NCBI GenBank assembly: GCA_051941275.1 | Contig: JAVEBF010000034.1 | Coordinates: 1-42,847 of the forward strand | Length of the DNA: 42,847 bases | From: Dirinaria sp. TL-2023a | Lineage: Eukaryota | Direction of reading: 5' to 3' | Part shown: positions 20,220 through 42,550 of the stretch, in pieces | How positions within the stretch are numbered: the stretch's first letter is position 1 | How the letters are laid out: every line of letters starts with the position of its first letter | Position numbers and translations under genes: made by a program | The notes under the pieces: model-generated | What the model saw: only the letters and a program-made list of their open reading frames with translations | Database searches by the model: none | Told to the model about the DNA's origin: nothing

Positions 20220-22938
20220 ATGGTTTTGCTTGACGGCTGACAACGGCTGCGAGGCACGGTGCGATATTCTGGCCCAAGTGTATTAGCTCGTCAGGTCACA
20301 GTGATAATTCTATGCAAGGTCAGAAATGAAGGTTGTTCTTCTTTCCAGCCGGGTGCTCAAGGGTTCATGGCATCTGAATTGATATTGACGCATTATCCCT
20401 CGCAGATTATCTCATAGGTCTGCCTTGCGCCCTTCGAACAATTGAGATGATGGAAGACTACCTTAGCATTTTGCGCGCTAAACGAACATCCGTGGATGGC
20501 CAGCCGCTTACCTGGTTTCTCAAATGGTAGGCCGATTCTTTCCCATAGATTTCTTCCAATTTTGGGTCTTCATCTCCGTGCTCAAAACAACCATTCGCAT
20601 GTTTAATTAGAATTCGTTTTGTTGCGCTATCAAACAAGAAAATTCCCTTTGAAACCGCATTAAAATGTAACTTACGCACAGTATATCTTGTATCGCGATC
20701 CTCCTTTCGCTGCAGACCAATGAGGTAGCAGGGAGAGGTGATAGACTGACCTGGTCCCGCTTGCGTGGTCTATGAAGAAGCGGACTGGAAATACTTTTGG
20801 GTGAATGTTACCCCATTTTTCGAAACTAAGCTCGGTCATACATGTCTCTTTTTTGATCAGCTTGATCTGCTAGTAAGTTGTCTCTAGCAGTATCTGACTT
20901 CATCACAAATGACTCTTTACTGTTTTCAGGCAAGCCACTCCTTCGAGGGCATATTTAATCTGTGTCAGCATAAGCATGCTAGTCATGCTATCAAGCCGTG
21001 CGCCTCCTTCGACGTTGGCCCACAAAAGGAAGCACCACATGCTCTGCTGGTTTCGGTCGCATCAATTTGGTGTTGTGTCCTTACCAGGAAATGGTTGAGA
21101 ATCAGTTGTTTGACATTTTCAGACGTCCAGCTCCGTATAGCGTATACGCTAATTTAGACGAGCAATAATTTGATCACGAGAAGAAAAGATCTGAAGAGAG
21201 TACTAGTTGTGAATTGATATCATAACAGAGTGATGAGCAGCTCTAAGTAGCCAAAAGCAGGCCTCAGACTTCGTACAGTTCTTTCTACACGCAACGCTTG
21301 AGGCTTCAGGGTTCATAGTCAATCGCGCTGCACGGAATTGTATTAAATTAAGCATACCCTATACACACACAAAAAAAAAAACGAAAATATCGTTTTCTTC
21401 TGAAATCTGAGGTAGCACACAAGCGACCTATATATCATGAATCGGTTCTGAATTAGAACGTGTATCTCTCAACCAATCCGTCAGAGACTCCACACGGCAA
21501 AGCAAATCTTAGGATATATACTACAGCCTCAAGGATCTTATGTCTACAATGAAATTCAACGCAAGGAAGTCAGGCAATCAATACAGCAGCAAGCCATCAA
21601 GCCTACGTCGACGATCATGCCGTCACTCAGAAATCAAATTGGAGAGCGATGACCCCCCAGGAAGGATCAGGATTGCATGCTTGAGCTGTCGAGCTTCAAT
21701 CCAAGCTCATGGAGAAGTGCGCCCTCCAGTATCTATTTGAAAAAGTAATACCTCAGCGCAGCTTAGCCTGGGGGACTTGCGCTGCGCAAGATCTCTTCCA
21801 TAACGCCTAAGTCCAGCCCATTTGAGCATCGAATCGATCACGACGGATGTTCCTAAAACCTCATATCCCGTGAGATTGACCAACGACACCTATACGCCGA
21901 GTCATTCTTCTACTGATCCACTCGTCACACGATACCTTTTTCCAATGGCATCACTACCACGAATCCTCCTCCTTCCAGGCAATTAGGAAGGTCCTCACGT
22001 CTACGACTGACTTCTCTACTGCCATCAGCACCACAGCCCCCGCACCAGCATCATTTCTCTCTCCAGTACGGACTGTAAGTCCTCGGCAACCCGAGCATGA
22101 AAGAGGATGCTGCCTTCATTCGAAAACACGCCCAGCAACTCTAAAAGCGTCTTCATATATTTTTCAAAATCCCTGACGGATGCCATCTTGCGAAAATACT
22201 GACTGGAAAAATCTAAATAGTGGAACGAAGCCCATATTAGAACATAGAGCTGAAGGAAATTTTTGAACAGGGAGCGCTCGTAAGAAATGAAAAGATCGTC
22301 AAAAAGAGAGGGAAAAAAACAAAACAAAAATAGGGAAGGCAGCTACCCATGCCGTGATGACGAATGAAGTTTGGCGCCATATCCCTTGTCTCGAAGGTGG
22401 GTCGTTGACTTGGTAGTTGTTAAGAACTTGTGATCATAAATTGAGCTTGAAGTTGCAGATCGCTTGACTGAGAAATGTCAAGCGTGGAAAATCTTCTACA
22501 TACCATCCACGGGCGCTGAAAACTGCTGTAAGGGTAACAAATGAAGATTAAGAAGACAATAAAAGAGTTTCGGAAGGAATAGCTACTGGTTTAGAACTTC
22601 GAGCATACCCTGGCTCGTCCTAAACCAATGCTATTAATCAGCGCACAGGCTTCATTCTATTCACTCAAAGTAGTCGACGAGCACTCGGTCGTATCAAGGC
22701 TAGCGACGAGCTTGTATAATAGAGGATAACATGTTGTTAGTGAGAGATGCGGATAGTTTCAGCGGCTTCCTTGGCTGCAGCTGTGCCACATGATGTCCCA
22801 TGTACTGCGCCTCGACGTCGAAGCGAATTTCCCTCAGTGGTGGACACTGCGCTTGCGGCTTTGCCTTAGATAAGACGGGGTACGAGTACAGCCCCGCTTC
22901 GTGGTTGCCAGGAGAAGAGCGCTGCAGAATTCTTGCAA

Positions 22939-24485
22939 ATGGCCTCAACCCGAATAGCTGAGCTCTCATCGCTCATTGCCACGCACACCGCTAATGTCGA
23001 CGCCTACCTGGCCGCCATTGGCTCGTCGTCGCCGTCGTTCGAGCCAGGACAGGCCTCGAACACTTTATCAGACGAACCGATTGCGGTGTCTCGCCAAATC
23101 ATTTTAGATGCAACAGACGAGCTGCATGCCTTGATGCTTGGACCAGCCGGTATACTGACATCTCCATTTGTTCGTTGCACTTATTCCATGCACAAAGTCA
23201 TTGATCAAACCGCATGATGCAAACAGCTTGAGCTAATTTTCAACCCTGTACAGCATAACTCGCTGATCAGTCTCCATGCAATTTGTCACTTTGGACTCGC
23301 AACAAAATTCCCTACAAACAAAGAGAGCGCATCCTTCGCGGAAATTGCAGACGGAACCAGCTTGAACGAGTCTATGGTGCGCCGAATCATCCGTCATGCC
23401 GCCTCCTATCGAATTTTTCGTGAGCCTCGAAAAGGATTTGTGGAGCATACGGGCGCCTCCAAATTTCTTGCCGAAAACCATGACATGCGTCAATGGATTG
23501 GAATGGTATCTGAAGAAATGTGGCCAGCAGCTACAAAGGCACGTTCACTGCACTTGAATGTTTTTCGTCTGCCTGCAAGCTGATGCGGGAATGGAGCAGA
23601 CAGTGAAAGCGCTCGAGGAGTGGCCAGGGTCTGACGAACCCAATCATGCGGTGATTTTCTCGTTTTTGCGGCGATAGGTATACGTTGGCTGATCAATTTA
23701 CAAAAAACAAGGGTTTCAATATTGCCCACCGTACGGAAAAAGTGAGTTTCGACGTCCTTTCCAGTGATCCAGACCGAGAGCAACGGTACGCAGCCGCCAT
23801 GAAATGGTTCAGCACAAGCCCAAGTCTAGAGCCAGCCCATATAGTGAACGGATTTGATTGGGCAAGGCTTGGTAAAGCGACTGTTGTCGATGTCGGAGGA
23901 TCGCACGGATCGCTTAGCATAGCGCTTTCTTCGGCATTCCCCAAACTGTCTTGTATAGTCCAGGATCGAGCGGAAGTCGTAGAAGTTGGACGAGCTTCAT
24001 TACCCACTACGGTCGAAGATCACGTTTCGTTCATGGAGCATGACTTCTTCAAAGAGCAGCCTACCAAAGCGGCCGCCGTCTATATCCTCCGATGGATACT
24101 TCATGACTGGTCTGACACTTATGCAATCAAAATTCTTCGAGTACTAACACCGGCCCTTGTTGAAAACTCCAAGATCCTGATTTGCGAATCCGTTCTCCCG
24201 GATCCGGGAAGCGTCTCTACGTTACGTGACCGGACCGCACGGTAATCGTACCCATCTCAAGCAATTCTGAACACTAAACACGCTAACTCGATAATGTAAC
24301 ACAGAAGCATGGACCTTTCGATGCTGGAATTCCATAACGGCAAAGAGCGCGACCACGATGACTGGGTTGAACTGCTTCATGTGGCCGACCCGCGGTATCA
24401 AGTGATCAGTATCAGGCAGCCACCGTTGTCACGTCTAGCACTATTGGAAGTAGGCTGGCGCGGCGATGCTGCCACGCTCGCATAG
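22939..24485 (+). CDS. SAM-dependent O-methyltransferase, fungal secondary-metabolite type (Methyltransf_2, OmtA-like; ~425 aa)
   Basis: Exons 22939-23169, 23254-23538, 23600-23650, 23712-24241, 24305-24485; the second intron is GC-AG. Motifs VVDVGGSHG, HDFF, LRWILHDWSD (catalytic His-Asp) and NGKER. Confidence 0.92.
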
Positions 24486-25626
24486 TTAATCGAGATAATT
24501 ATGTAATTATCTATGGGAATGCTTGATGTATATGACAGAGACCTCTTTTGATAATCCGTGAAGTTGTAAATCATCGCAAGACAGAAGTTTAAAAGGTATA
24601 GACCCATGGTAATCACCATAACTGATGCGAAGAGCCTTGCAAAGTAAAAAGAGTTGCGCGCCAAAGCCGGAGGTACAAGAGGGGATCCACGATATTTGGT
24701 AGGTTGAGTAGCAGAGTGCTACTGCAAGGCTTCTTCGCTTCGCAAACTTCTTATCGCACTTTAGACTAATCAATCTCCACCTTTTCCACCAGACACGTAA
24801 ATATGCAGTCGAGGTCAAGCCAGCGGCAGATACCAAGCCGGCTGTCGACCTAGATTCGCGTCCGTTAGAAAATCCCTAAATCAAAGATCAAGTGCTCAGT
24901 AAACATGGGGTTGGTAAGCTAAATAGCGAATGCACAAAACTTCGCCATAAGCGCTCGTAATTGCGAGAATTTGGGGAAAAGATGATGGATCGGGAGCAGC
25001 GATCAAAGGCACAATGTTTGATGTTCTTGACGTTTGTGGCACGCTTTGAGGCTGTCGGACTGCTGCCAGATTGCTGAACAAAACGATCCGAAAATCCCAG
25101 AAAGAATTCCTATGGTAGAGTCTTAGTCCCTAATGTTGCGACAGGAAGCTCTGCGCAGTACATTCGTATAAAAGAATGCATGTACTGTATCGCAGTCTTG
25201 TCAGGTACTAGAGAAATCACAGTGTCAGGTAAAATGTCGCAGTCTGGACCATCCTGAGAATCTCCTGTTGAAGTCTGCGTCACTAATATCAAGATAGGAT
25301 TAGAGTATAGTATATTTACGTCGTGTCGAGAACGCTTGAAAAATTAGATCTCGGCGTTTCAGCCATCAGCGACCAACTCATAAATGAAGGTAAATGTCTG
25401 CGCTAATCGCAATAGGTCTATTGACTGATGTGGGATACACGATCAAAGCTGAGTCTCCATTCCCAACAGATATGACTGATACACAACATTCAACACAACA
25501 AGACATAATGACCTCATTAGTGAGCGAACGGCAGAAGAGCACCGTATAGCCCTATCAGTGGGAACCCTCGGGCTTCTCCATCCATCATTGAGTGTGATTC
25601 TTCAACTGACAGTCGACGACTTTAGA

Positions 25627-27449
25627 TCAATGTAATATCCAGTGATCGCCCTTTTGAGCATATAACTCATCCACGACGCTTTCATAGCGCTTCAAAGTCT
25701 CCGCACGTCTTATAGTACCTTTGGCCGTAAAACTCATAGGTTGATCATGATCGAGTACGTGAATATGCGACTTCGAGATCTGCGTCTCCCGCCTGTAATC
25801 TTTGTTCGCTTCCTGCACCAGAGGCCAGACACCATCGACGAGATCGTCCTTCTCGTTGACTGAAAGCCTTGCATGATTCACTGGTTCAATGAGAAGCGCT
25901 GATTGAAGTCTTGCTGTACCTATCATTAATGCTGCACGTACATCTGGATACCGCGAAACCGATAGCTCCATTGAATCAGGGCTACATAGCCGGGTGTTTT
26001 TGAGGACGAGTACATTATCCTTTCTCCCTTTGTAAGTCCAAAGACCTGGTCGCGATGGATGCTGAGCAAACAAGTCTTTGGTTGAATACTCTGTGAGATC
26101 TGGAAACATTTTGAAGACGGGCTGTTCGACTTTCAAGTCAGACTTTCTAACTAGTATAGCTTCGCAGACGCCAGTCTCATTGTCCACAGCTCGGAAATCG
26201 ATACCTAGCTCCGGTTGTGGACGGATATAGTTCCATTCGTCTGCGGGCCATTTGCCTGATGGGTAGATTGTAGGGAATGAAGCTGTCTCCGTCGCGCCGT
26301 ATATATCGAACAACTGGGTCCTAGAGGTGAAAGCCTCGCCTGCAGTTTTTGAGATATCTGCACCACCGTACGTGACAACTTTGATATTTTTCGTGACGAA
26401 TTCGAGCATCTCCGGATCTGCGGCAATACTTTCCAGAGACGGCGGGTCAAGAACAGCAGCATCGACATGGACATGTTTGAGAGCTTCAACAATAACTTCA
26501 GCACAGGGCAAAATTTCCGCTGGTAGCGTGACAATAGCCGACTGATTTGCGATTGCGTTGATCAAGGTGCTAAAAAGGTTCGCGGCCTAAATTCTAGTCG
26601 TGAGCGAAGTTCCCGAAACAAAGATATCGGATGAATCGAGGTATGGTAAAGACTATCTCGTCCTATAGCTTACATGAGAGAATAGTGCTGTCACGAGCGT
26701 CCGGCTGGGCCTCATAATGCTCATGTGGCTTTCAAATCCAGGCGGTGGTGGAAGTCGGCACCATGCGATGTAGCTTGCTACAAAGTCGTGCGTGTAGACT
26801 CGTACTTTGGGTGGGCCTGTTGTCCCTGAAGAGTGTACGGCGCATAGCGGTTCCGTTTTGGCTTCGGCGAAATTTTTGCTATATGGAAACGGTCGATAAT
26901 CACCTTGAAGCAACTCGTACAAACTGGGGCTGTCAATCACTCTAAGAGCGCGGACTTCGAGGATACTTTTGACTGGCGCCGACTTGAGGCGGGAAGGTGT
27001 AAGTAGTATGCTGCATTCACCGGCCTCGAGAATACTGAGATGATAATCGACGCTATTATACGGGGAGACTGACAGAATCTAGCCCAAGTACGTGAGTGCA
27101 CCGATTGCATGCTAAAGTACAGCCACGAGCAAACCTTGTATCCAGCTTTTGCCGCCCCAAGGATCATAATAACGTACGTCAGATCATTAGGGCCAATGTA
27201 CGCGACGGCATCATGGTTTACGCCTTTCCCCAGCTGATGATGCAACAACCAGGCAACGCCATTGACTGCATTTGCCAAGTCCCTGTAGCTCACGCTTATA
27301 TACCCTTGATTGAATGTTGTAGGTGATGCAGGAACTTTGGCGTACAAAGCATCGGGCCTGGTATTTGCCATCCTGTCAACCATATTCGGTAGCAGCTCTG
27401 TATCAGGATGTGCAATGTTCATGGCTTCCGGAACTCCAAATGCAGTCAT
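25627..27449 (-). CDS. Stand-alone adenylate-forming enzyme (A domain of the fungal NRPS-like/carboxylic acid reductase type, no T or R domain; ~559 aa)
   Basis: Exons 27449-27135, 27078-26674, 26586-25627. Motifs SYRDLANAVN, YIGPNDL, HSSGTTGPPK (A3), YGATET (A5), TKDLF (A7), GRKD (A8) and TAKGTIRR (A10). The stop comes shortly after DELY. Confidence 0.88.
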
Positions 27450-28105
27450 CTTAGTGATCGAAGTAAAAGCTGTCCCTGGGTTTGTGACACTGGAAATATG
27501 GGATGTTGGATGCACTTTAGGGATTATCTCAGAGGGCGTGTGAAAGCTTCCCGTCTACGTGCAATAACCGACCCAGACGGTCTGATGATATCCTACCTTT
27601 ATATTCTAGAGTTACGTAAGTTTCCCATCAGATTTCAGAAGCCCATACGTCGTGTTTCTTTGATGACTATGATGTAAGTCCGCATTGAGTACAGCCGTCA
27701 TCACTCTAGGACTGCCTGTGACTCGTGCAGCCCCGGCAGAACTGAGCGGAAGAATTCTTTGAACGCCATTGGCCGCTGTAGTCTAGATCTGACCCATGAC
27801 CCGAAGTCGTGAACGAGGATTTCTCGATTCGAAAACCGATACAGGGATGGTGTCGGGTCAGTCTGTCATCTTTTTGGCTGAAGAAACAACAGCGAAGGAC
27901 CACGGCCGAGTCAGTCCGCAAACAGATGACTCGCGGACGCCTAATACGCTGGAAGGCTTGTTCGAACAAGGTCTAAAGCCGGGTCTAAGATATGCAATCA
28001 ATCGCCAATCTTTCTACGTGACCATTCAATTCCCCATCGGGTACAGCCAGCAGCATCTTGGTTTTAATACGCTATCTCTGCGCCTATCGGTTTATCTTGC
28101 TTTTC

Positions 28106-31100
28106 TCAATCCTTACCTTCCCGAATCAATTCCTTGCCCACCGGATTGAATTCTGCCGCTATTTTACCCCCAAGGTGCTCTATACTTGCGCTGTTCATGA
28201 TCACCATCAATGGCACTCTCGCGTCCAAGTCACGCGCTATCCAGTTCCTGAACTCGACTGCTACAAGGGAGTCAAGCCCATAGGCGACGACTGGCTTCGA
28301 ACTCTCGATATCCTCCTTCGATAGCATAAGCAAACTCGCCAATTTGTCAATCAACGCTTCCACGATAATCCCTGTGGCTGAAGCAACCGACGAGGCAGCC
28401 TTCAGGAGTTGTCGGACAGGTATAGCACCCTCTGTAGAAGTACTACTAGAGGCGGACAACGACTGAATTTTATGCAGGACATGGGCGAATTTAGGATCAT
28501 CAAACCAGACGGGAAGGGGTCTGTCCGGTAAGAGCTTGAGCCCGGTGATGGTCTGTCGATAATCTTGACAGTGAGGATTCATTATGGCGGCTTTGACCAG
28601 AGCATGAAGCTCGCGCTCTGACAGGCTGTCATGTGTTACCTTGCTGATCTCTGCGCGTCGGTCGACATTCTCGGCAACATATCCCACACTTTCAACAACT
28701 CCGATATCGATTGCGCAGGCGGCTAGACCAAGGCGTTGCCGGTATGCAGCAAAAGAATCGAGAAAGCAGTTTGAAGCCGCGTAGGCGGTCTGCCCGGGAT
28801 TGCCCAGGAAGCCAGACAAAGACGCGAGAATGACGAAGAAATCTAACGGAGAGGCGGAAAGATTGTTGTGGAGGTTCCAGGCACCGTTGACTCTGGGCAT
28901 TATGTTTAGTGTCCAGTCCTCATAGGAGATTGTGTCAAATAATGCATCTCTGAGGGCCATTGCTCCATGAATGACGCCACGAATGGGCGGCAAATTGAGC
29001 TGACATTCCTCAACAAGACGTTGAACTTGACAATTATCAGCGATATCGCATGCTTTGACCACTACGTTGGCATCAAAAGCTTTTGCTTCGTCGATGAGTT
29101 CCGTTATGCCTCGTTGATTCATGCCGCTGCGTGAGGCGAGAACGATGTTCTTCGCCCCTTGACCGACAAGCCATCTGCTGATTGATCTACCTAAGCCGCC
29201 AGTGCCTCCTGTGATAAGATAGGAAGCATCCGCCGAAATGTTGGTGTTTGGCGGAGGTACTGGTAAAGCCTGTCAGACTATTAGCTTGGTTGTTCGCAAT
29301 TCATATAGTGAAGAAAGTACCGGTACTATATCTTCCGAAGTGACTTCGACAACTAATTTGCCCAAGTGTTTCCCTGTTTGCATCATCCGCATGCCTTGGC
29401 TAATTTGAGACATGGGTATGGTCCTAATAGGGGTTATAGGTCTAATCGTCTTATTTCGATGTAATTCCATGACATCTCTAAGCATCCGTCCCACGATTTG
29501 AGGCTTGAATTTTAGCAGCGCGCCGAGGTCTACACCAATGAAAGATACTGCGTCTGCAAACTTCTCCATGCCAATTTTAGAATTTTGAACAATGTCCCAC
29601 TTTCCAAGTTCGAAAAATCGACCGAATGGTGCGAGACATTGCCAGGATGATTGAAGGATATCACCCGTGGTGGAGTTTAGGATGATGTCAACTCCTCTTT
29701 GGCTTGTTCTGCTCATCAACTCTTTTGAAAAGGCAGTATCGCGACTAGAGAAAATGTGATCTTGCGGTATGGCGTACATCTCCATCAAAAGATTTCGCTT
29801 TTCGATCGAGCTCACTGTTGCGTAGATTTCCGCTTTGGCATTCTGAGCAAGCATGATAGCTGCCTGACCCACCCCGCCAGCAGCTGCGTGTATCAATATT
29901 GACTCACCTTCGCAGATATTTCCCATCTTGACTAAGGCGTATAGTGCCGTGCAGAATACTATAGGTATTGACGCTGCTTCAGAGAATGTCATATCGTGCG
30001 GCATTCTTACGACTTTTGAGCTCTTCACTCGAACGGAAGAACCATAAGCGCCTTCTGCCATTCCACAGACGCTGTCGCCAACCTTGATTTCGGAAACCTC
30101 AGATCCTATCGCGGTAACAACACCACTACACTCGAGACCAGGGTCATGGTAGTAAGGTATCTGTCCAAGGCTAATCATGACATCTTTGAAATTCATGCCA
30201 GTCGCTTTGACAGATATCTCGATCTCGTCATTCGATAGAGGAAGCTGTTCAGCAAGATTGGTTTCGAAATAGATACTGTCGAGGAGGCCTATTTGACCAA
30301 TCTTCATCTTTAGTGGTCGCTCTTGAATCAAATGCTCTGGCTCCGGCACAGACGGACGAGTTTCTCTGACAATATAGTCATCTTTGCTCTGATCTTCCAA
30401 CATGCGTGGTATGTGCAGCATGCCATCGATTTCCCGGAACTCCATATCTACCACAGGACTCAGTCTCTCCGGGTCAAACACGTAATCAGCCACCTTTAAG
30501 ATGATCTCTGCAGTCTCTTGGTCGGAGAGTAAGGTCTCAGCATCAAAGTCGATGGTTGAAAATTGAAGACCAGCGTTCTCGGACCTGATTGACCTTGCCA
30601 CGCCAGCAACCATGTTGGCTATGGGATACTGGGATGAAGCACCACGAACGACCCAGAGAATCCCTCGCGCTGATTGGAAAGTGCTCTTCATTTTTTGCAG
30701 GCCCGATTCGTCGATGTCCAGCCAAAAGGAGTCCTCCATCGCTACCACGATTGCGTATTTGTCGTCCAAATTAGTTTTCAGCAGGTGCTCAACGGAGATT
30801 GGTTGAGCAGCTCGGGCACTTATTAGGCGAGACAAGATCTCGCTTGGTGCCTTGAGCTCGCGCATTTGAGGCTGGACGAGGCTGAGAACTGGTGAGGCGG
30901 CCGTTTGGTCTGGTTTTGCTGTCGCTAACATAACGCTACCAAGGCTGTGTCCATCACCATTGATCTGCATACTCCCATCCACTCTCGAGAATCCATTTGC
31001 ACCGAGAACATCATTCCACTGCTGTTCATTGAGAAACGGTTTGTCGCGGCGTTCAGGCTCCTCTCCAAGCCACCATCCTGCATTTGAAGCACAAGGTGTC

Positions 31101-34100
31101 AGTCCATGTCCGTAACCCTCAAGATATACGCGCGTTGCAGCAGACTCAAGCTTCTAAGCACAGACATTCCAATCAAGTAAGGGCCTCGTAGGTAGATAGC
31201 TAAAAAAGCATCTGGCATTGCAGGTCGCGCTGAGTAGGGAATTGCGATACTAGGCCTTTGGGGTTTTAGCTTACCTGGTAGAGTACCAAAAATCATGAGA
31301 TTTGTGAGCAGCTGCGCTGTAATCTCGGCAATAATGATTTTGCCACCTGGCTTCAATAACCGGCGGACGTTGCGTATCGTATTGGCCATGTTGGCCGTAG
31401 CATGAAGAACATTGGCGGCCACAACGAGATCATATGATTCACGTTGAAAACCTTGGTCCAAAGGATCTTCCTCTATATCTAGCTTACGGTAGCCTAGGCG
31501 AAAACGTCAGCGATCCTTATTTTGAGCGCTCAAGTATATTGTGGGCATTCTCGGAATTAGTATAGTAGCTTACTGATTCTATCCGCCCATTCCATCTGTT
31601 CAGCTCTTGCGCTTTCAAAGAAGCCTGCCGAAACGTCAGTAAAGTCGAAGTAAGCGAATCTTTGGCCCAGCGTATGCAGAATTGGCATTGTTGCGCCGCC
31701 TGTACCAGCTCCCAGCTCAACGATTCGCATATTGGGATTCTCGCATGCTAACTTGTCGGCAATAGATGTAGTGCACGCGTAGAACCACATTCCCCAATTA
31801 TGCTCACGATAATAGGACTTGAGCATGTTGTCTTGCACCATCATCGAAAGGGGCTCAACTTCGCCCTTAAGAACAGAGGATAGGTCACGGCCCATACTAC
31901 ACACCAGGCGGCCGCAAGCACCAGAGGATTCTAGGTCACGAAGGAACTCGTTGTTCTCAGCCTCTCCAGACTCGACCCACTGCGCGTTCCGGAAGACCAA
32001 ATTCTTTTGATTGCTTTCTCCCATCAGAGTAGACAATGTCCTGTAGAGCTTTTGGTGGTGTGGTGAAAGCATTTCGGCTTCTTCTGCTGTAACATTTTCG
32101 AGTGTTGATTTGATGAGGATAAAAGCAGCTCTCTCGTGATTCTGGAGCTCAGCAATGGGTGCTCTGCAATCCAAGGCGCTGCCAAAGATGTTGTGGAAAT
32201 CTTCAGTCTTAAGTAGGCTAAGATAAGGCTCCCAGCTCAGTTTGTAACAAAGCCCGCGATCATTGGACTTGGTAACGTCGATATTTTGATTCGGTAATCT
32301 TGTCACTACAAGGCCTTCCACCTTGATCAATGGTTCCACTGCAGATTCACTGTCCATGATAAAAAAGGACGCGTGGATATCCGGATCACTCGTGCTGCTC
32401 GTCGGTGATGCTCGCGCATAGCCGTCGAGTCTGTGCCCTGGAGAATTAGGTAGGTTATGACATACAGTGATCTCTTTCACAAAGGTTGGCACATGGATAT
32501 CATCACGTGAGAGATCCCCTGCACCAGCTGCATAATCAACAATTTGAAAGCATGCGTCGAAGGTACCTGGGTGAATGATGTGGATACTCTCGAAGTGATC
32601 GGGCATCATCCCCGCGGTATCAGGTATATTAATTGCACCAGTCGAGTAACCATCAGCAGCGTGAGCGGCTGAGATGTTGCGGAAGGCTGGCCCGAATTCC
32701 AGGCCACCTCTCGAGAATCGTGAATAGATATCGTTGGGAGCCAAAACCCTCTGACATACGCGCTTGCAATTTTGAACAGCGTCTTTGTAAAAATTCGCTT
32801 CTTCTTCAAGCTGTCGCACTCCGCTAATGGGGTTTGGCTCTCTGTCACCCTGGATCACGGTGATCAAACCATGGCAATGCTCTACCCAGCCACCCTCTGA
32901 AGTCCACGAGAAGACGCGAAAACAATTCCAAATACTCGAAACACTTTGAGGACGCATGACAAGCGATACTTCTGTGGCAATGTCATCAGAAAGCATCATA
33001 GAGCGATCAATCCTCACGTCCTGCAACTTATATTGGCTCGCTGCAGTGATGGAACCCTTGTGCAGTACGGCATGTTGGTATGCACCCTCAATGGCCATGG
33101 CTAGATAGCCGGTCAATGGAAAGACAATAGAACCCTGGACCCTATGATCTGACAGCCAGGGAACATCCGAAACACGAAGGATATTTCTCCATCTCGGCTC
33201 TATGTCGTTAAAGTCATCGACAAGACTGCCTAGAATGTCGCTCCGGGGAAAACGCTTACAGCGATGATTGATGCTTAGTCGAGACTCATGCCAGTGTCGC
33301 TTGCTATGATTCCATGGATATGCTGGTAGATCCGTCAAGAACCTCGGAAGAAGCAAGTCGAAGTGATTTATGGCGTCGAAGTTGAGTCTGCAGCCCATCA
33401 TGAACAGTTTCGACGCTAGAGAAAGCATCGTAAAGTCTGCATCTTGGCCCCGTACCAAGCTAGGGAGATATTGTACCCTTGACACCTCCTGGGGCACACT
33501 TTTTAAGATGTCACGTATTGAAGACTCCAACGTGGAATGTGGTCCGATTTCGACGAGTACATCTGGACCTCGACTTTCACCCTCACTGTACATACTCTGA
33601 ACAGCGTCCATAAATTGAACTGGGCTTGTCATATTTTCAACCCAGTAACCAGCGTCGAGCGAATTTGTTTCAACCAGATGGCCTCGGACTGAGGAGTAAA
33701 AGCGAGCACCACGAACCTGACGAGGCTCGATGGCCTTAATTGAGTCGAAATACTCCGTTGAGATTTCATTCATGTGGGGCGAATGATAGGCAACGTCTAC
33801 TTTCAATCGTCGGTTCAAAAGACTTTCTTGCTCCGTAATAGTTTGAAGCCTCGATATGCCACGTTCATCACCGGAAGCAGTGATAATTGATGGAGCGTTG
33901 ACGCAAGCAATAACCACTTGCGCCGATCCTAATCTGTCGATCATTGGCCGGACTTGAGCAGGGGACGCACCAACAGCAAGCATCCCTCCAGGCCGCTCGG
34001 ATTTGTTGGCGAGAAGTCTCTCCGCAAGCGCGCCACGTTGGAATGCGACGAGTAAACAAGACCGTGCAGAGAGTGCGCCAGCTGCGTAGGCAGCTGCAAT

Positions 34101-36533
34101 CTCTCCACTGGAATGTCCGACCACAGTTGTTGGCTGAATAGCCCAGGATGAGAGTAAAGACACTAAGGCGATCTGAACAGCGGTCGTGGCAGGCTGACTG
34201 ATATAGGGTCGATTTACGAAGGATGACTCGCTATCCTTTTGGAGTTCATCTTCCAGATGTTAGTATCTCCATACCAATCAAGCAGCCGTTCACTAACCCA
34301 GCAGCGACCATGTTGCGCCAAACTCCTTGAGGTACATATCCGACATATACATTGATTGCGCAAAGGTTGGATACGAGTTGAGCTCCCGACCCATGGCATG
34401 CCATTGAGCACCTTGGCCTGTAAATACAAAACCCAAGGATGGCTTTCCGGAAGGCTTTATCGGCTCTGCGGAGTTGCAAGATAAAAGTGCACTTAGTTCA
34501 CTTGGCGTTGCTGCAACTACCGCCTCTCTCCAGTCTAATATTGATCGTCGTTGACTCAAGGTGAAGGCCAGGCGTTCCATAAGTGCCGCTTCCCGGTAAT
34601 TGGGCTTGGCTTGAGCAAGATATAATGCTGAGAACATCAACCTACGGTCAGCAAATTGATGCTTTTAGACACGGATGCCAGAGTGAAATTACCAATATCC
34701 TCAAGAGAACGTTTTAGTGAAGTTTTGTCGCGGGCACTGAAAACGAACAGACGTCTCCTCGATTTCCCAGGATCCTCGTCGGATTCAGATGTCAACTTGG
34801 AGTCATCACCAGGATAAGGAAGATTGATGTGGCAACTATCGATCCCATTGATATGAGTGAAATTGTTCTTCAGAGTATGCTGTTCGAGGATGACGTGGAC
34901 GTTTGTGCCTAGAGACACTGATTAGCGGGTAGCGAATCACACCAAAAGAAGCTGACCTCCAAATCCAAAGTTACTGATAGAAGCTCGACGTATTTGGGAC
35001 GTTGGCCAAGTTTGAAGTGAGGTCGGGACCTTGTATGATAAGCCTAGTCATTGATAATATCTTGAGGCGTACCTTCAACTTCCAATCACTCAATGGAATA
35101 TCTGGATTGGGGGATTTGAAATTGATATTCGGAGGAATAACACCATTTTCCAATGCGAATATGACCTTAACCATCGCGGTCAAGCCGCTCGCTGCTTCCA
35201 AATGTCCAATATTAGTCTTAACAGATCCAATTACTAAAGGCTCATCGATTGATCGACCGTTGCCAAAAACCTTAGAGATCGCCTCTGCTTCTACAGGATC
35301 GCCCGCTGCAGTACCTGTGCCATGAGCCTCGACATAACTTGTTTCGATGGGCTTCAAACCCGCTGCTTGGTAGGTTTCATCCATCAGCTTTGCTTGAGCT
35401 TCACAACTTGGATAAGTAATGCCGTTTGTTCTACCATCTTGATTGACGCCTGTATTCCGGATAACGGCTCGAATGTTGTCGGAATCGTGTATTGCAGCAT
35501 CAAGCGGCTTTAACAGAACACCCACGACTCCTTCACCGCGACCGTATCCCGCTGCTCTAGAGTCAAATGTAAACGACTTGCCCTCAGAGCCAAAGAGTCT
35601 AGAAAGAATCAGTATATGCCGCAATACGACGCCCGTGGACTTGCTTGAGCATGCTCATTCCCACCATAACGTCCGGGCTAAGCATTATATGTGCACCGCA
35701 GACGATGGCTTGGCTGCTCTCGCCTGTTCGCAGACTTTGACACGCTGTGTGGAGGGCGGCCAGGCTGGACGAGCAGGCGGTGTCCATAGTTATACTCGGG
35801 CCCTTTAGATTGAACGCATAGCTTATTCTATTGGAGAGTATGTTGGCGGATGTGCCAGTGGACTGATAGACTGGGAGATGCTCAACATCCTTATACATAA
35901 GGTTTTGATAATCGATCTGTGAGGCTCCGACGTAGACACCCGTAGAAGTGCCCGCAATCCTTTCAAGGGCCACACCACCTAGGTACTCCGCAGTTAGCGA
36001 ACTCTATTAGCTTCGTTATATCCAACTACTCACCGTTTTCAAGCGCTTCATATACGACTTCAAGTAGTAGCCGCTGTTGGGGATCCATGGCCTTGTGTAT
36101 AGATCAGTACTGGACTCGTATGGACTTTGTACGCTCACTTTTGCTTCATTTGGGGTGATGCTAAAAAATGGGGCATCGAAAAGCCCAACGTCGTCTTTCA
36201 GAAAGTGGGCACCTGCAAAGTTGAACTATCATTTACTTGAGCCAACGTTGTACGAGAGCCTATATCTTTGGCTGAACTAACAGTTCCACTCTTGGAGGGG
36301 TTCGGATGAAAGTATGCTTTGGGATTCATTCGATGTTCCGGGATCTCGGACCACGCTGATTCACTGCGGCAGCACATTTCCCACAGCTTTCGGGGGTTTG
36401 TTGCTTCGCCAGGGAATCGGCCAGCGATACCAACAACAGCAATGGGCATTATTGCAGCTACTCTGGCCGGATCAGTCGAAAGATGCTCCGTATTCTGGCG
36501 CTGCTGTCCATTGATAGTATGGGTTGAAGGCAT
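28106..36533 (-). CDS. Highly reducing iterative type I polyketide synthase KS-AT-DH-cMT-ER-KR-ACP (~2563 aa, 12 exons)
   Basis: KS DTACSSS, EAHGTGT, NIGHLE; AT GHSSGE, AYHS; DH HRVQGSIVFP, FDACFQ; cMT ELGAGTGG, NVLHAT; ER NFKDVM, HAAAGGVG; KR TGGTGGLG, LRD, YAASN; ACP GLDSL. Introns 36281-36226, 36138-36092, 36033-35979, 35644-35599 (GC-AG), 35072-35030, 34956-34909, 34692-34628, 34297-34250, 31573-31494, 31274-31078, 29320-29270 give 7692 coding nt. Confidence 0.96.
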
Positions 36534-37258
36534 CACGCGCTGTGTGATCAATGACTTTTCCAACTGCTGGGACGAAATATATCGTAGAATAATAATCAAC
36601 AAGGTTTTGGATTATACTGTCAGACACATGACCAAGTAGGGGGTTATGGCCTGGTTCATATAACCGAACAGTAAGAACGCCTTGTTGGAACAACACGTGA
36701 AGGGAGTTGATATCGAGAATTAAGTGCCAAACATACGGCCTTAATACGTCAAATACAAAGACTTATACAATTGGGACACGTCTTGCAAGAATACTCAGAA
36801 CTCGCAGAGACCCTTGAAGGGTGCTAAATCGAGAATGCACCAAGAAAAGTCATATAGCAGGTGTGGGTCCCACCCAAGCCCCGTCTGAAGATTTAGACAT
36901 AGTAGCATGATAGATGATTAGCGGAAATATAACCTAGTGAGAAACTTAAAGTTAGTAGAAATAGTTGTTGACGTATGGATTAGGAGACGATATCGTATAA
37001 TTCATGCAATGGCGGAGATGACCGGCCTATTCTTACGATATCCGAGTTTCTCCGATCAATGCTTGACTGGATAAAACTTGTCAGCTACAGCGCAAGCAAA
37101 AGATAAAGAATTTTGACGCATTGAATACTTAGGCTTTTACGGGCTAGCACGATCTAAATCTGCGGCACGGTGAATAGCCTAAATTACATAATTCATTGGA
37201 ACCAGAGTCTCGTTGACGGCTTGTATAGAACAACCAAGTATTACTCGACGAACGCTTG

Positions 37259-38158
37259 TCATAGCGCGTTCGTGTGGTCAACGACGCCCAAACTCCTCTG
37301 AATGACCTGCCGGATTTCCTTGGCAATTCCTTGGGTTGTACGGAGGTCCCACGGGACTATGTGGCCCTTGCCATGGTCGAAAATCCCAGCCGAGTCTCTA
37401 TCACAGATGTTGTACAAGGCCAAGGAAGCCCGGTGGGTGGGATCTTTTGATGCCACAATATGGGCAGTGGGGATGGCGATGCGTGCTGTTGTCTCGTCTG
37501 CAAGGAAAACTCCTTTATCTTGCCATTGCTGCGGCGGCAGCCCGCAGAGGAAAATCGCGAATTTGAATGGACTCTTTCCTTTTTGCATCGCTTGACGAAA
37601 CAGCAAAGTTGCAGCCACAGAGGCACCTTCAGAGAAGCCTAGAATACCATCGAAAGGGCCCTCCTCCTGCGGCTCAACAAACTTTTCGACGGACTCGCAC
37701 GCGCGTGTTGGGCTCATGTCGAAACAACGGTGCTGTTGCAACATTCGCACAAAATCTTCCGGGGTTGACCCGTTCCCTGCGTCCTCTGCACATGTGCGGG
37801 CAATTTCCGTCACTCGAGCCAACTGAACATCATTATCGTAGAAACGGTAATATGGACCTTCATATCGTTCAGCTATACCCACTGCAGCTGGTGCTGGAGC
37901 AGGTCCATTGATGAATCGGAGATCCAGCTCGTATGTCTTGCGGAGCTCGTACAAGACCGGGGCTGTACTTAGACTGGATCAGCCCACTCTCATTATGACG
38001 ACCAGAGGGTACTCGTCACCTAGCTGGGTTTGCAAGATCTGTAAGGGGCAATATTAGCTGCAGGTGCTTCATTGTAAGCGTGCGCGCACGCAAGGGTGAG
38101 TTCCTATCTCGGTTACATTTGCATTCATGCCGAAACCGTGCAGGCAGAGGATCTTCAT
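37259..38158 (-). CDS. FSH1-family serine hydrolase (LovG/Fub4-like trans-acting polyketide release enzyme; ~254 aa)
   Basis: Exons 38158-38117, 38038-38020, 37962-37259. N-terminus MKILCLHGFGMNAN; putative triad Ser in GPFDGILGFSEGA, Asp in ASKD, His in HGKGHIVP. Confidence 0.92.
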
Positions 38159-40735
38159 CCTGAGCTCTTCTAGGTAGTGCGTCGAGATTGTCGCCAAAGG
38201 TGTATGATAGAGACTGGTTCAAATTTGTCTGTGTCTTCGAAAGTCGATGTTGTGGCAATGTAATGTGTATTTCAAGTAATCGATTGTTTATCAAAGGTAA
38301 ACCTCGACTGTACCTCCGTCCCAATCTTCACAAGGAGCAAGTGTCTCTAGATCTGAAGTTGAGAAAGGACCAGGCCCGGATATCGCCCCGTGAGCCCTTC
38401 GTCGGAGGTGTTTGAATAACGGGTGATGTGGACGAAGCAGGAGTAGCACCCTTGAGAGCGTATGCGGTAGTCACGACTCTGGCATTGTAGAGTGCGGACT
38501 TAGCTGAGTAGCTTAAATCATCGCTGTCAAGCCGCGGAAAGAAAGGAGATTATTCAGAGATGTTTACGTAACGACACATATCTGCACAGATCATGTACGC
38601 GAAGGTGTCAGGGTGAGTCTGTGAGATCCGCACGGCTGAGTTCGGTCAATGCAAGATCTACTCGAACTATGCTCACTCAACCCAGCAATCGGTCCCTGCT
38701 TCTGGAAACGACCAACCATTTTGATTGGAGAGGAAAAGCTAGAATCGTAAAGTATCGTATGGCAGAGATTTTTCAGGTTAAGTACATACCTTACCTACGG
38801 TACATGAAGACGATGAACGATCAATCTAGCCGAAGGGAGCCTAGCGACTTGACTAACCGTACGGAGTAGGTTCCTGAGGTGCCCTAAAGTACGGAGTACT
38901 AGATGAACTGGATGCCATGTCGGGCCGAACCCTGATCGAGCTCCGATCGCGATGATTTCCAGCACCCATACATTAGGTAAAGTATTATTCCTGAGCATGT
39001 GCTTATTGCTTATTCCAAATTCTCAAGAATGTTGGATTGGATTCACCCTTCAATCACTCGTGACATGCTCGAAATATGGAGACGCCTTTGTAGCTTTCCA
39101 AAATTACCAATCTTGTCAAATTCGAGTCTACTATCTTCGCTGATCGCAGTGCCAAAGACTCAAGATGAGTCTTCGTTTTCCTTTTATTGAAAATCGAATG
39201 GGAGCTACTTTCTGCGAGACGGTTTTGATATTGCGTCGAAAAGACTGTAACACATGTGAGATATCTTCAAAAGGCAATTGTGTTTGAAAAATTTTCAAAC
39301 CTACCGGACTCAAATGATCACCGTAGCGAAGTGCCTAGCTTGGCTAGAGGGAAGTAAGGTAAGGGATCTACTGTACCTTAGTTGCCGACGCTAAATTTGT
39401 CCGGTGCATTTGATACCAGTAATACTATTGCTACGTATACGAGCATGCATTTGACATCATCATTCAGCTTGCTACCTCCATTGTGGAATTGGAGTGGCGT
39501 GCGCATATCGGCATGACATACGTGCATATTGACATGTCGGCATCGCCGACCTCTCCGGCGTGCAATTGCCATTATTGCTTATGGGAAACCGTGCATATGG
39601 GATACTTCGCCATCGCATTGCAGTTGACTGACCGTGGCTCTGCATTAGACTCGACATGCGTTCTAGACCTTTTGGACCTTGGATGACGCATTCGGCAATG
39701 CTTTGAGGCAACGAGAATATATGACAGTGACATCTCATCGGCACCTCCTCTGGCTTCCACAATCGCTTCACGATTATTGTACCCACCCACTGCAAGTATT
39801 GGCCAAACAGATAGAGGGAGTTGTCAACGCTAGAGGCAGCATGTTTCGAGACAGTTGTTGCTTGCTAGATAGACGACTCTGGCATCGGCGAGGCCGAAAA
39901 CCAGTATATGGCTATTATCAATGCTGGTCCCGTGAAGCATTGAGAGCACTTCTCATAGAATGCTGCGCGCTGTCGCTAATTTACTTAGATGTGAGGTGTA
40001 TTTTGTACTGTAGGTTGGCTCGCTGGGTGCAGAGTATGATGATTTTCCCGTTTGAGTTGATTGAAAAGGGGCTGATTTAGGGTTACCTTCGACCATATGT
40101 TGCGATAGAATGTGAAGACTCTATTTAACCCTCGTAGCAATCTCTTCACAGTAAGATCTATTATTAATTAATCACGATTATCTGCTCAAGCCTGAGATCA
40201 AGTTTTGTTTATCACCGTTTCATGTGTAAGCCATTGAATTTGCATTCTATCGTTCTCACGCGTAGTCGAGTTTAAAAACTCGATGCTTCATTTCTTAAAA
40301 TCTCATTGATTTCGTCTTAAAAGCTCAAATATGAAGTGTTGACTTTCGCGATCGATGCACATGGGTCTGCAACCTTTCATGGAAAACTTCAAGTCCAATA
40401 GGTCGATATGAGTACTCAGCCTCGCCTTTGACTTACCTTATCATTAAGGCGTCCAAAAAAGGCTTACGAAACTACGGCGCAATGTTCTCAAACGTGGACT
40501 ACGCTCCCAGCGGGCAAGTGATTGGTTAAGGATGATGATTAAAGCAAGGCACATGGGAATAGGTAATTGCCTGCCTGGTAATATAGACGTCTATGTTGTT
40601 TGCGCGTGGTGATTCGACATGAGCCCCCCCTCTGCGTGCCTTTGCCGTTCCATTCTGGGATATATAACTCCGTCGACGTACTCCAGAACACTGCGTTCCA
40701 TAATTTGCTCTATGGTAGCGTCTCAGCTCTTCCTC

Positions 40736-42517: not shown

Positions 42518-42550
42518 AAAAAAAAAAAAAAAAAGAAAAAGAAAAAGAAA
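42518..42550. repeat. Poly(A)/A-rich tract
   Basis: A run of A followed by GAAAAA units, read directly. Confidence 0.8.

What the first reader, a model, noticed from the sequence alone, without database searches (positions are those of the whole stretch)
22939..38158. Compact polyketide cluster: HR-PKS, FSH1 hydrolase, stand-alone A domain and O-methyltransferase
Seen: four intact adjacent genes; the PKS carries recognisable KS, AT, DH, cMT, ER, KR and ACP motifs; no P450, intact transcription factor or transporter. Known: LovG- and Fub4-type FSH1 hydrolases release chains from HR-PKSs that lack a TE; the fusaric acid cluster pairs such a PKS and hydrolase with a full A-T-R enzyme; PKS plus OMT pairs occur in pyrone pathways such as solanapyrone and nectriapyrone. 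Inference: I do not recognise this exact combination. A plausible logic is release of a C-methylated reduced acid, ATP-dependent re-activation for lactone, ester or amide formation, then O-methylation. This is the best candidate here for an undescribed system.
Basis: partly seen in the sequence, partly recalled or inferred. Interest (0 to 1): 0.82.

Follow-up and report, generated by a model that had tools for sequence, protein, structure and literature searches.

The report
Orphan lichen polyketide gene cluster
Four intact neighbouring genes in a lichen fungus form an ordinary-looking orphan polyketide cluster: the synthase and its release enzyme are a conserved pair, but nothing yet shows that the two other genes work with them.

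Summary
The window is a whole 42,847-bp contig of a lichen-fungus MAG (Dirinaria sp.). At 22939-38158 it carries four intact genes:
- an O-methyltransferase;
- a stand-alone adenylate-forming (ANL) enzyme;
- a 2563-aa HR-PKS (KS-AT-DH-cMT-ER-KR-ACP, all motifs present, no release domain);
- an FSH1 serine hydrolase.

No P450, transcription factor or transporter was detected nearby.

The FSH1-then-PKS tandem is conserved in a lichen-only PKS clade. Four relatives' gene models carry the hydrolase fused at the N-terminus, and those hydrolases are among the window hydrolase's best matches.

The OMT is not co-conserved. In 5 of 5 genomes with both an OMT relative and a clade PKS, the two lie on different contigs. 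The ANL enzyme belongs to a widespread ascomycete family of about 560-aa stand-alone enzymes. Its linkage could not be tested.

The combination has precedents:
- fusarielin: PKS, thioesterase and a non-participating AMP-binding neighbour;
- strobilurin: PKS, CoA ligase, OMTs and hydrolases.

Verdict: a new member of a known kind, an orphan LovG-type HR-PKS cluster with two candidate accessory genes. Interest is modest.

The parts
22939..24485 (+). O-methyltransferase gene (Methyltransf_2/COMT-like). Five exons: 22939-23169, 23254-23538, 23600-23650, 23712-24241, 24305-24482, then the stop. 425 aa.
   Evidence: Pfam PF00891 at 89.5 bits and PF08100 at 21.5 bits, which is below its cut-off. Spliced alignment to 9 relatives. 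The model has VDVGGSHG (SAM site) and LHDW. Best solved relative is GedA 7wh9, E 3.6e-27.
25627..27449 (-). Stand-alone adenylate-forming (ANL superfamily) enzyme. Three exons: 27449-27135, 27078-26674, 26586-25630, then the stop. 559 aa. No carrier domain.
   Evidence: PF23562 at 90.2 bits and weak PF00501 on three ORFs. Model and motifs: GYKILSVSPYNS, SSGTTGPPK, YGATE, STKD, GRKD, AKGTIRR. 42% identical to the 540-aa P0134. Atlas neighbours are ascomycete PF00501+PF23562 clusters of 557-593 aa.
28106..36533 (-). Highly reducing iterative PKS. 12 exons, 11 introns, including one GC-AG intron (35644-35599) and one 197-nt intron (31274-31078). 2563 aa.
   Evidence: Spliced alignments to up to 9 guides per region. 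Motifs. 100% match to P0001 over the shared exons.
35070..36455 (-). KS domain of the PKS (approximate limits).
   Evidence: PF00109 and PF02801 on ORFs 36201-36611, 35602-36003 and 34974-35654. Cys198, HGTGT and NIGH present.
33398..34430 (-). AT domain (approximate limits).
   Evidence: PF00698 at 161.3 bits. GHSSG at residue 670.
32285..33236 (-). DH domain (approximate limits).
   Evidence: PF21089 and PF14765. HRVQGSIVFP at residue 994.
31336..31721 (-). C-methyltransferase domain core. It is split by the 80-nt intron 31573-31494, and the 197-nt intron 31274-31078 follows it.
   Evidence: PF08242 and other methyltransferase models on two ORFs. VELGAGTGG at residue 1469. The same two introns were found with 7 of 8 guides, lichen and non-lichen. 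P0004 gave another split of the second intron.
29348..30805 (-). Structural NAD-binding region (PF23114) followed by the ER domain.
   Evidence: PF23114, PF08240, PF00107 and PF13602. LIHAAAGGVG at residue 1991.
28145..29227 (-). KR and ACP domains. The protein ends 12 residues after the ACP match, with no TE, R or C domain.
   Evidence: PF08659 at 209.5 bits. PF00550 and PF23297 at residues 301-376 of the 388-aa last ORF. GGTGGLG and GLDSL present.
37259..38158 (-). FSH1-family serine hydrolase (LovG-type). It lies upstream of the PKS on the same strand, 725 nt from the PKS start. About 258 aa. Main exon 37967-37262; first exon starts at 38158; the small middle exon is uncertain.
   Evidence: PF03959 at 77.2 bits. 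Models. Ser116, Asp179 and His206 of the 239-aa ORF lie in columns at least 90% conserved in 30 relatives. 61/47/45/45% identity to the hydrolase parts of P0003, P0007, P0018 and P0011.

Best explanation
The working unit is a conserved two-gene module. An FSH1 (LovG-type) serine hydrolase gene lies directly upstream of a TE-less iterative HR-PKS with a complete reductive loop and a C-methyltransferase.

The PKS builds a reduced, probably methyl-branched acyl chain on its ACP. Having no release domain, it depends on the hydrolase to cut the thioester and free a carboxylic acid.

This copy is one of two paralogues in the genome. It sits beside an intact stand-alone ANL (acyl-activating) enzyme and an intact phenol/enol-type O-methyltransferase. 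These are best treated as candidate, lineage-specific accessory genes. If they take part, the ANL enzyme activates a carboxylic acid with ATP, either the starter or the released product, and the OMT methylates a hydroxyl or enol.

Shown here: gene integrity, domain content and motifs, and conservation of the hydrolase-PKS tandem. Inferred: hydrolytic release, methyl branching, and any role of the two neighbours. The product is unknown.
For: - Domains and motifs are complete, and the protein ends 12 residues after the ACP match.
- FSH1 scores above the Pfam cut-off, and Ser, Asp and His sit in columns at least 90% conserved in 30 relatives.
- The PKS falls in a 19-row clade with support 100. 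That clade holds only lichen-fungus MAG/genome proteins plus one unnamed contig protein. The tree has 41 rows: the window plus 40 of the 120 listed hits, chosen by me. Identity is 69-46% inside the clade and 38% or less to Penicillium, Fusarium and other non-lichen fungi.
- 4 of 120 PKS relatives' models carry PF03959 at the N-terminus (P0003, P0007, P0011, P0018). They are spread over the clade.
- Their hydrolase parts are 61, 47, 45 and 45% identical to the window's. The best non-self representatives in a 1.84-billion-protein library reach 44-48%.
- LovG-type release from a TE-less HR-PKS is established: LovG, and FSL2 whose deletion abolished the product (PMC6274466, passages).
- LovB is the best solved match of the AT-DH-cMT exon, E 4.2e-83.
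- The ANL and OMT genes are intact with their core motifs. They lie within 0.7-1.1 kb of their neighbours, and the flanks have no recognisable genes for 3.8 and 4.6 kb.
Against: - There is no direct evidence of expression or of a product.
- The fused FSH1-PKS models may be annotation mergers. They show adjacency and orientation, nothing more.
- The window PKS is sister to (Xanthomendoza + the second Dirinaria copy). No true orthologue of this copy was sampled, so its own neighbourhood could not be compared.
- cMT catalytic residues beyond motif I were not checked.
- For the accessory genes: the OMT is not co-conserved, no ANL or OMT piece occurs in any of 120 PKS models, and no promoter motif is shared.
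Confidence: 0.6

Rival explanations
1. The hydrolase releases a C-methylated reduced acid. The ANL enzyme re-activates it with ATP for lactone, ester or amide formation. The OMT then methylates the product.
For: - All four genes are intact and tightly packed between gene-poor flanks.
- The ANL enzyme keeps the ATP-binding and catalytic motifs.
- From my recall, not checked here: the azaphilone cluster pairs an HR-PKS with a CoA ligase thought to re-activate the released acid for an acyltransferase.
Against: - No acyltransferase, condensation or carrier protein was found in the window to accept a re-activated acid.
- The OMT is not co-conserved with the PKS clade in 5 of 5 genomes.
- 0 of 120 PKS models carry an ANL piece, and no promoter motif is shared.
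- A solved-structure search places the OMT nearest GedA (7wh9). That GedA acts on an aromatic polyketide is my recall. Sources name other relatives 'sterigmatocystin 8-O-methyltransferase precursor'. This is not what a saturated acid would need.
Confidence: 0.15
2. Starter-unit supply, strobilurin-like. The ANL enzyme makes the CoA thioester of a non-acetate acid, for example an aryl or branched acid, or loads it directly. This primes the HR-PKS. The hydrolase releases the chain, and the OMT methylates an enol, hydroxyl or carboxyl.
For: - In strobilurin biosynthesis the stand-alone CoA ligase Str10 activates benzoate as the starter of an HR-PKS. The cluster also holds two SAM methyltransferases and hydrolases (PMC6158276, passages).
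- Atlas neighbours of the ANL C-terminal exon include a bacterial cluster auto-named 'putative feruloyl-CoA synthase', in which 64% of members carry PF23562.
- Benzoate-CoA ligases appear among the weak profile hits, E about 9e-3.
- In Heterodermia an OMT relative's gene model (P0294, 56% identical) carries a piece of an aromatic amino-acid lyase. This implies a PAL-like gene next to it.
Against: - No PAL or other starter-making gene is in this window.
- The similarity to aryl-CoA ligases is marginal, and fatty-acid CoA ligase and luciferase score better.
- The same lack of co-conservation and of a shared promoter motif applies.
Confidence: 0.15
3. The ANL gene, the OMT gene or both are unrelated neighbours. 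Only the hydrolase and the PKS belong together, and the four-gene set is a chance juxtaposition in this paralogue.
For: [quoted passage not shown]
- OMT relatives of 46-56% identity sit on other contigs than the clade PKS in 5 of 5 genomes: Calogaya, Haloplaca, Pyrenodesmia, Heterodermia and Pseudocyphellaria. This follows from locus tags and contig lengths.
- The best OMT relative (68%, Loekoesia) comes from a genome with no PKS among the 120 listed.
- The ANL family is common in Ascomycota: 18 of 30 Atlas hits share its domain set.
- The four promoters share no motif.
Against: - In fungi, biosynthetic-type genes packed within about 1 kb of a PKS are usually cluster members.
- The compared OMT and PKS proteins may be paralogues, not orthologues.
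- ANL linkage was not properly tested. The one search covered 175-559 aa, while the protein itself is 559 aa and its Atlas relatives are 557-593 aa.
Confidence: 0.35

Closest known systems
Lovastatin LovB/LovF with LovG (trans-acting FSH1-family thioesterase)
   Same: A TE-less fungal HR-PKS with a cMT domain, released by a separate FSH1-family serine hydrolase. LovB is the best solved match of the AT-DH-cMT exon (7cpx, E 4.2e-83). LovG's role is as cited in PMC6274466 (passages).
   Different: From recall, LovB has an inactive ER, needs trans-ER LovC and ends in a condensation domain. Here the ER motif GGVG is intact and the protein ends after the ACP. No trans-ER, P450 or acyltransferase is nearby. 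The relationship is distant: no solved structure matched the hydrolase by sequence.
Fusarielin cluster (FSL1 HR-PKS, FSL2 thioesterase, FSL6 AMP-binding)
   Same: An HR-PKS, a trans-thioesterase that is needed for the product, and an adjacent AMP-binding gene (PMC6274466, passages).
   Different: The authors report that FSL6 is not co-expressed or conserved. FSL1 has an inactive ER and uses trans-ER FSL5. That cluster also has an epimerase, a P450 and a transcription factor, and no OMT. Sequence relatedness to the window's genes was not tested, because no FSL sequences were at hand.
Strobilurin cluster (stpks1, Str10 CoA ligase, Str2/Str3 methyltransferases, hydrolases)
   Same: An HR-PKS with KS-AT-DH-cMT-ER-KR-ACP, a stand-alone CoA ligase, SAM O-methyltransferases and hydrolytic functions in one cluster (PMC6158276, passages).
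   Different: It is from Basidiomycetes. [quoted passage not shown] The ligase there supplies a benzoyl-CoA starter. None of those extra genes is in this window.
Fusaric acid Fub1/Fub4/Fub8 and pyrone PKS+OMT pairs (solanapyrone, nectriapyrone)
   Same: I know them only from recall and read no paper on them here.
   Different: From recall, Fub8 is a full A-T-R enzyme. The window's ANL enzyme has no carrier or reductase domain. From recall, the pyrone pathways need no hydrolase. No sequence comparison was possible.
Ascomycete stand-alone PF00501+PF23562 enzymes ('acetyl-CoA synthetase-like')
   Same: Same two-domain architecture and size. The top Atlas clusters are 559, 593 and 557 aa with 75, 53 and 57 members, from Ascomycota, scores 0.99 for the homologue P0134. 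P0134 is 42% identical to the window's protein.
   Different: I know of no tested function for this group. The Atlas gives look-alikes without alignments, so membership rests on Pfam domains and on the 42% identity to P0134.

Membership tests
Fungal iterative highly reducing PKS | Domain order KS-AT-DH-cMT-ER-KR-ACP on one polypeptide | tested here: met
   Pfam hits lie in this order along nine collinear ORFs. They are joined without frameshift or stop into 2563 aa.
Fungal iterative highly reducing PKS | Catalytic and cofactor motifs of each domain are intact | tested here: met
   DTACSS, HGTGT, NIGH, GHSSG, HxxxGxxxxP, VELGAGTGG, GGVG, GGTGGLG and GLDSL were all found once in the expected order. 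The GHS.G pattern had one further chance match at residue 1633. The motif patterns are from recall. cMT catalytic residues beyond motif I were not checked.
Fungal iterative highly reducing PKS | No built-in release domain (TE, R or C) | tested here: met
   The last ORF of 388 aa holds KR at residues 16-194 and ACP at 301-376, and ends at 388.
FSH1/LovG-type trans-acting thiohydrolase | PF03959 match above the curated cut-off | tested here: met
   77.2 bits against a cut-off of 21.
FSH1/LovG-type trans-acting thiohydrolase | Ser-Asp-His catalytic triad | tested here: met
   GFSEG Ser116, Asp179 and His206 lie in columns at least 90% conserved among 30 aligned relatives. Assigning these columns to the triad is from recall of the alpha/beta-hydrolase pattern.
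FSH1/LovG-type trans-acting thiohydrolase | Genomic pairing with a TE-less HR-PKS, conserved in relatives | tested here: met
   The hydrolase lies 725 nt upstream of the PKS on the same strand. 4 of 120 PKS relatives' models carry the hydrolase N-terminally.
FSH1/LovG-type trans-acting thiohydrolase | Thioesterase activity on the PKS-bound chain | not testable with these tools
   Needs an enzyme assay or co-expression.
ANL superfamily adenylate-forming enzyme | PF00501 N-terminal domain plus a C-terminal lid domain | tested here: met
   PF23562 scores 90.2 bits against 20.8. PF00501 is split over three exons, each below the cut-off (24-28.5 bits against 29.9). The full-length homologue P0134 scores 67.9 bits.
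ANL superfamily adenylate-forming enzyme | Core motifs A3 (P-loop), A5, A7, A8 and A10 Lys | tested here: met
   SSGTTGPPK, YGATE, GRKD and AKGTIRR are present. A7 reads STKD instead of the usual TGD, with the Asp kept. Motif definitions are from recall.
   TIGR01733 is the best NCBIfam hit of homologue P0134, but at 53.7 bits against a cut-off of 317.4. The window's exon 2 reaches only E 4e-4.
   The only PP-binding match in the window is the PKS ACP.
Class I SAM-dependent O-methyltransferase (Methyltransf_2) | PF00891 above cut-off, SAM-binding glycine motif and catalytic His | tested here: met
   89.5 bits against 22.3. VDVGGSHG and LHDW are present. 94 solved relatives, the best being GedA.
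Co-functional four-gene biosynthetic cluster | Co-conservation of the gene set in other genomes | tested here: not met
   The OMT lies apart from the clade PKS in 5 of 5 genomes. No ANL or OMT piece is in any of 120 PKS models. The ANL test is inconclusive because of the length limit. No contig of any relative could be read.
Co-functional four-gene biosynthetic cluster | Co-regulation (shared promoter element or co-expression) | tested here: inconclusive
   Shared 7-mers: 0 observed against 0.33 expected. Shared 6-mers: 14 against 12.1. No expression data are available.

The most novel reading that the evidence does not exclude
This paralogue of a lichen-only HR-PKS/FSH1 module has recruited a member of the widespread, functionally untested ascomycete family of stand-alone PF00501+PF23562 adenylating enzymes. 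That enzyme works directly with a carrier-only partner, the PKS ACP or the freed acid. It either loads a non-acetate starter without a CoA intermediate, or re-activates the released methyl-branched hydroxy acid so that two units are joined as an ester, which is then O-methylated. Such a product would resemble the aliphatic, methyl-branched ester acids known from lichens (bourgeanic-acid type; this is from recall, and I do not know of it being reported from Dirinaria). That would give the first function for this enzyme family and a route to a lichen aliphatic ester. In some relatives the hydrolase may also be truly fused to the N-terminus of the PKS.
Probability: 0.1. Interest if true: 0.6.

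Novelty: new member of a known kind. Interest (0 to 1): 0.3.

Why it matters
Lichen fungi hold many orphan reducing-PKS clusters, and almost none has a known product. This locus defines a lichen-restricted clade of HR-PKSs that travel with a LovG-type release enzyme. It also gives corrected full-length gene models that could be expressed in a host.

If the neighbouring ANL enzyme does take part, that would give a first function to a common but uncharacterised ascomycete enzyme family. As it stands, this is a routine genome-mining target, not a new kind of system.

Tried and rejected
- **Cluster-member lookup.** I wanted locus tags for the ten best FSH1 relatives.
- **ANL search at 'near' lengths.** It gave only 19 hits, and I first read the family as rare. 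I rejected this reading. No protein search was left for the 'longer' range, so fused A-T-R relatives and ANL neighbours of PKS relatives stayed unchecked.
- **Structure prediction of the ANL family (alignment A1, P0134 as first row).** It gave mean pLDDT 54.2 and pTM 0.35. That is too poor for a fold search, so none was run.
- **Sequence and profile searches of the ANL enzyme against solved structures.** They gave only marginal hits: luciferases at 3.5e-6, fatty-acid CoA ligase at 1e-4, benzoate-CoA ligase at 9e-3. No subfamily could be assigned.
- **Promoter motif search.** It found nothing above chance.
- **First ANL splice model.** The 553-aa model was replaced after I saw that it skipped the conserved SPxNS stretch.
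- **Apparent frameshift.** The frameshift at about 34853 seen with guide P0002 disappeared with 8 other guides, which use introns 35072-35030 and 34956-34909 instead.
- **Literature.** Three searches for the gene combination or for lichen LovG/FSH1 pairs found no description of this cluster. The paper on the Teloschistales metagenomes, which I take from the 'TL-2023' names and its subject to be the source of these MAGs, does not mention Dirinaria, hydrolases or O-methyltransferases in its main text (PMC9907504, term search). Its supplements were not opened. A passage search of the fusapyrone paper gave nothing useful.
- **Synteny.** No contig collection for fungi was open, so synteny could not be examined directly.

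Full report
**Origin and observation**

The window is a whole 42,847-bp contig of a metagenome-assembled genome of a lichen-forming fungus. The PKS exon matches, at 100%, a protein that its source names 'Dirinaria sp. TL-2023a, Q9191_000596', seen on one contig of 42,847 bases. The adenylating-enzyme exon matches Q9191_000595.

I ran Pfam on 132 stop-to-stop ORFs of at least 76 aa.
- an O-methyltransferase on the + strand;
- on the - strand, in order, an AMP-binding enzyme, a highly reducing PKS and an FSH1 hydrolase.

**Gene models**

I wrote a spliced protein-to-DNA aligner and used relatives as guides.

- *PKS.* 12 exons from 36533 to 28106, 2563 aa, with no frameshift or internal stop. One apparent frameshift seen with one guide vanished with eight others. 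The 197-nt intron inside the cMT region was recovered by 7 of 8 guides, non-lichen ones included. The eighth gave a different split.
- *Public models.* The PKS model is 2344 aa and lacks the N-terminus and parts of the KS. The public ANL model is 404 aa and skips the middle of the gene.
- *ANL enzyme.* 559 aa in three exons. My first model of 553 aa was corrected after I saw that it skipped a conserved SPxNS stretch.
- *OMT.* 425 aa in five exons.
- *Hydrolase.* About 258 aa, starting MKILCLHGFG. The small 5' exons are uncertain.

**Domain integrity**

The PKS has the expected motifs in the expected order: KS Cys and two His motifs, GHSSG, the DH His motif, cMT motif I, GGVG in the ER, GGTGGLG in the KR and GLDSL in the ACP. 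The patterns are from recall. The protein ends 12 residues after the ACP match, so it has no release domain.

The hydrolase has Ser, Asp and His in columns that are at least 90% conserved among 30 relatives. The ANL enzyme keeps the P-loop, YGxTE, GRxD and a C-terminal Lys motif. Its A7 reads STKD. The OMT has the SAM glycine motif and the LHDW histidine.

**Surroundings**

No P450, transcription factor, transporter, acyltransferase or second carrier protein was found. This holds for the 132 long ORFs, for 32 ORFs re-scanned at E<=1, and for 123 short ORFs in the flanks.

The nearest other recognisable genes are:
- a carbonyl-reductase-like SDR at 18144-19086;
- a class-I aminotransferase-like gene at 11950-13689;
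- another SDR at 7000-7966.

The four genes are bounded by 3.8 kb and 4.6 kb without recognisable domains.

**Relatives of the PKS and the hydrolase**

Of 120 listed PKS relatives, those at 46-69% identity are lichen-fungus MAG/genome proteins plus one unnamed contig protein. By their names they are mostly Teloschistales, with a second Dirinaria copy. The ordinal placement is from my recall. Identity then falls to 45% and 42% in two further lichen fungi (Pseudocyphellaria, Pycnora). It is 38% or less in Penicillium, Fusarium and others. No hit carries the name of a characterised synthase.

I built a FastTree of the window plus 40 of the 120 hits. I left out the partial P0017, most unnamed fragments and most of the distant named hits. 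The tree puts the window in a 19-row clade with support 100, as sister to Xanthomendoza plus the second Dirinaria copy. The window gene is therefore an old paralogue, and no sampled orthologue of it was found.

Four clade members' gene models (P0003, P0007, P0011, P0018) start with an FSH1 domain and continue into the KS. Whether these are true fusions or merged annotations, they show the same hydrolase-then-PKS order on one strand. Their hydrolase parts are 61, 47, 45 and 45% identical to the window's. The best non-self representatives in the 1.84-billion-protein library reach 44-48%. The pair is therefore inherited together across the clade.

**The OMT**

The best relatives of its SAM-domain exon are 68% (Loekoesia), 57% (cf. 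Caloplaca sp. 2) and 53-56% in many lichen fungi. More distant relatives are named 'sterigmatocystin 8-O-methyltransferase precursor' by their sources. The best solved relative is GedA.

Five genomes have both a listed OMT relative and a listed clade or near-clade PKS: Calogaya, Haloplaca, Pyrenodesmia, Heterodermia and Pseudocyphellaria. In all five the locus tags are hundreds to thousands apart and the contig lengths differ. None of the 120 PKS models contains an OMT-like segment. The caveat is that orthology was not established.

**The ANL enzyme**

- It is far from any solved structure. Luciferase at E 5e-4 is the best sequence hit, and a family profile reaches only 3.5e-6.
- No NCBIfam model comes near its cut-off.
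- The 175-559 aa search gave 19 hits. Only one other full-length named protein was among them: Pseudocyphellaria, 540 aa, 42% identical, not near that genome's PKS.
- I first read this as a rare family, but the protein is itself 559 aa. The Atlas lists 18 of 30 look-alike clusters with the same two domains, 557-593 aa, from Ascomycota. The family is common, and the search was simply cut off by length.
- Its linkage to PKS relatives therefore remains untested, apart from the absence of ANL pieces in 120 PKS models.
- A structure prediction of the family was too poor to use (pLDDT 54.2).

**Co-regulation**

The four upstream regions share no 7-mer (0.33 expected) and 14 6-mers (12.1 expected).

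**Mechanism**

The best-supported reading is a two-gene core. The TE-less, fully reducing, C-methylating PKS makes a reduced, probably methyl-branched chain, and the FSH1 hydrolase frees it as an acid. LovG does this for lovastatin and FSL2 for fusarielin (PMC6274466, passages).

The ANL enzyme and the OMT are intact and close, so they are fair candidates for accessory steps. Three readings stay open:
- supply of a non-acetate starter, as Str10 does in strobilurin biosynthesis (PMC6158276, passages);
- no role at all, as reported for the AMP-binding gene FSL6 beside the fusarielin PKS (PMC6274466, passages).

On present evidence the last is the most likely single alternative.

**Novelty**

Each part belongs to a known family, and the PKS-hydrolase logic is textbook. 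HR-PKS clusters with a ligase, OMTs and hydrolases are in print. Three full-text searches found no description of this particular cluster, nor of a lichen LovG-type pair. No MIBiG comparison could be run.

I rate it a new member of a known kind. Its modest interest lies in the lichen-restricted clade, in the corrected gene models, and in the chance to give a function to a common uncharacterised enzyme family.

Noticed in passing
window 28106-36533, 25627-27449 and 37259-38158: The public gene models of this contig are defective. The PKS model (P0001, 2344 aa) lacks the first exons and parts of the KS. The ANL model (P0121, 404 aa) removes two false introns of 254 and 351 nt and so loses the P-loop region. 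The hydrolase model (P0140, 253 aa) has a different N-terminus from the MKILCLHGFG start that is usual in relatives.
   Followed up: yes
window 31078-31274 and 35599-35644: The PKS has an unusually long 197-nt intron after the cMT core, and a GC-AG intron (GCAAGT...TAG, 46 nt) in the KS. Both are supported by several guide proteins.
   Followed up: partly
P0003 (Dirinaria Q9191_002743) and P0002 (Xanthomendoza): The same genome has a second copy of this PKS, with the hydrolase, that is closer to the Xanthomendoza gene than to the window's copy. The duplication is therefore old. The neighbours of that second copy could not be read.
   Followed up: partly
P0039 and P0327 (Dirinaria Q9191_000460 and Q9191_000464, one 49,787-base contig): A different HR-PKS of the same genome lies four locus tags from a paralogous OMT, which is 45% identical to the window's. 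This is a separate PKS-OMT neighbourhood.
   Followed up: no
P0294 (Heterodermia aff. obscurata Q9195_002999): The gene model of an OMT relative (56% identical) begins with a fragment of an aromatic amino-acid lyase (PF00221, E 7.6e-7). This suggests a PAL-like gene next to that OMT.
   Followed up: partly
P0003, P0007, P0011, P0018: The hydrolase and the PKS are annotated as one protein in four relatives. In P0007 the FSH1 domain runs into the KS through a linker of about 55 residues. Whether these are real fusions or merged models could not be decided without the DNA.
   Followed up: partly
window 11950-13689 (-), 7000-7966 (+), 18144-19086 (-): A class-I aminotransferase-like gene (best solved relatives are archaeal multiple-substrate/kynurenine-type aminotransferases, E 1e-9) and two SDR genes, one of them carbonyl-reductase-like, E 1.7e-31. 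They lie 4-16 kb from the cluster. Their relation to it is unknown.
   Followed up: partly
window 1904-3264 (+), 5032-5967 (+), 40761-41714 (+): Three further ORFs: one with a weak DUF7728 match, a 312-aa Cys-containing ORF with a hydrophobic N-terminus and no family match, and a 318-aa Ser/Thr/Ala-rich ORF with no family match.
   Followed up: no
window 19100-22900 and 38200-42847: Both flanks of the four genes lack any ORF with a recognisable domain, for 3.8 and 4.6 kb. A-rich simple repeats lie at 16338-16373 and 42518-42552.
   Followed up: partly
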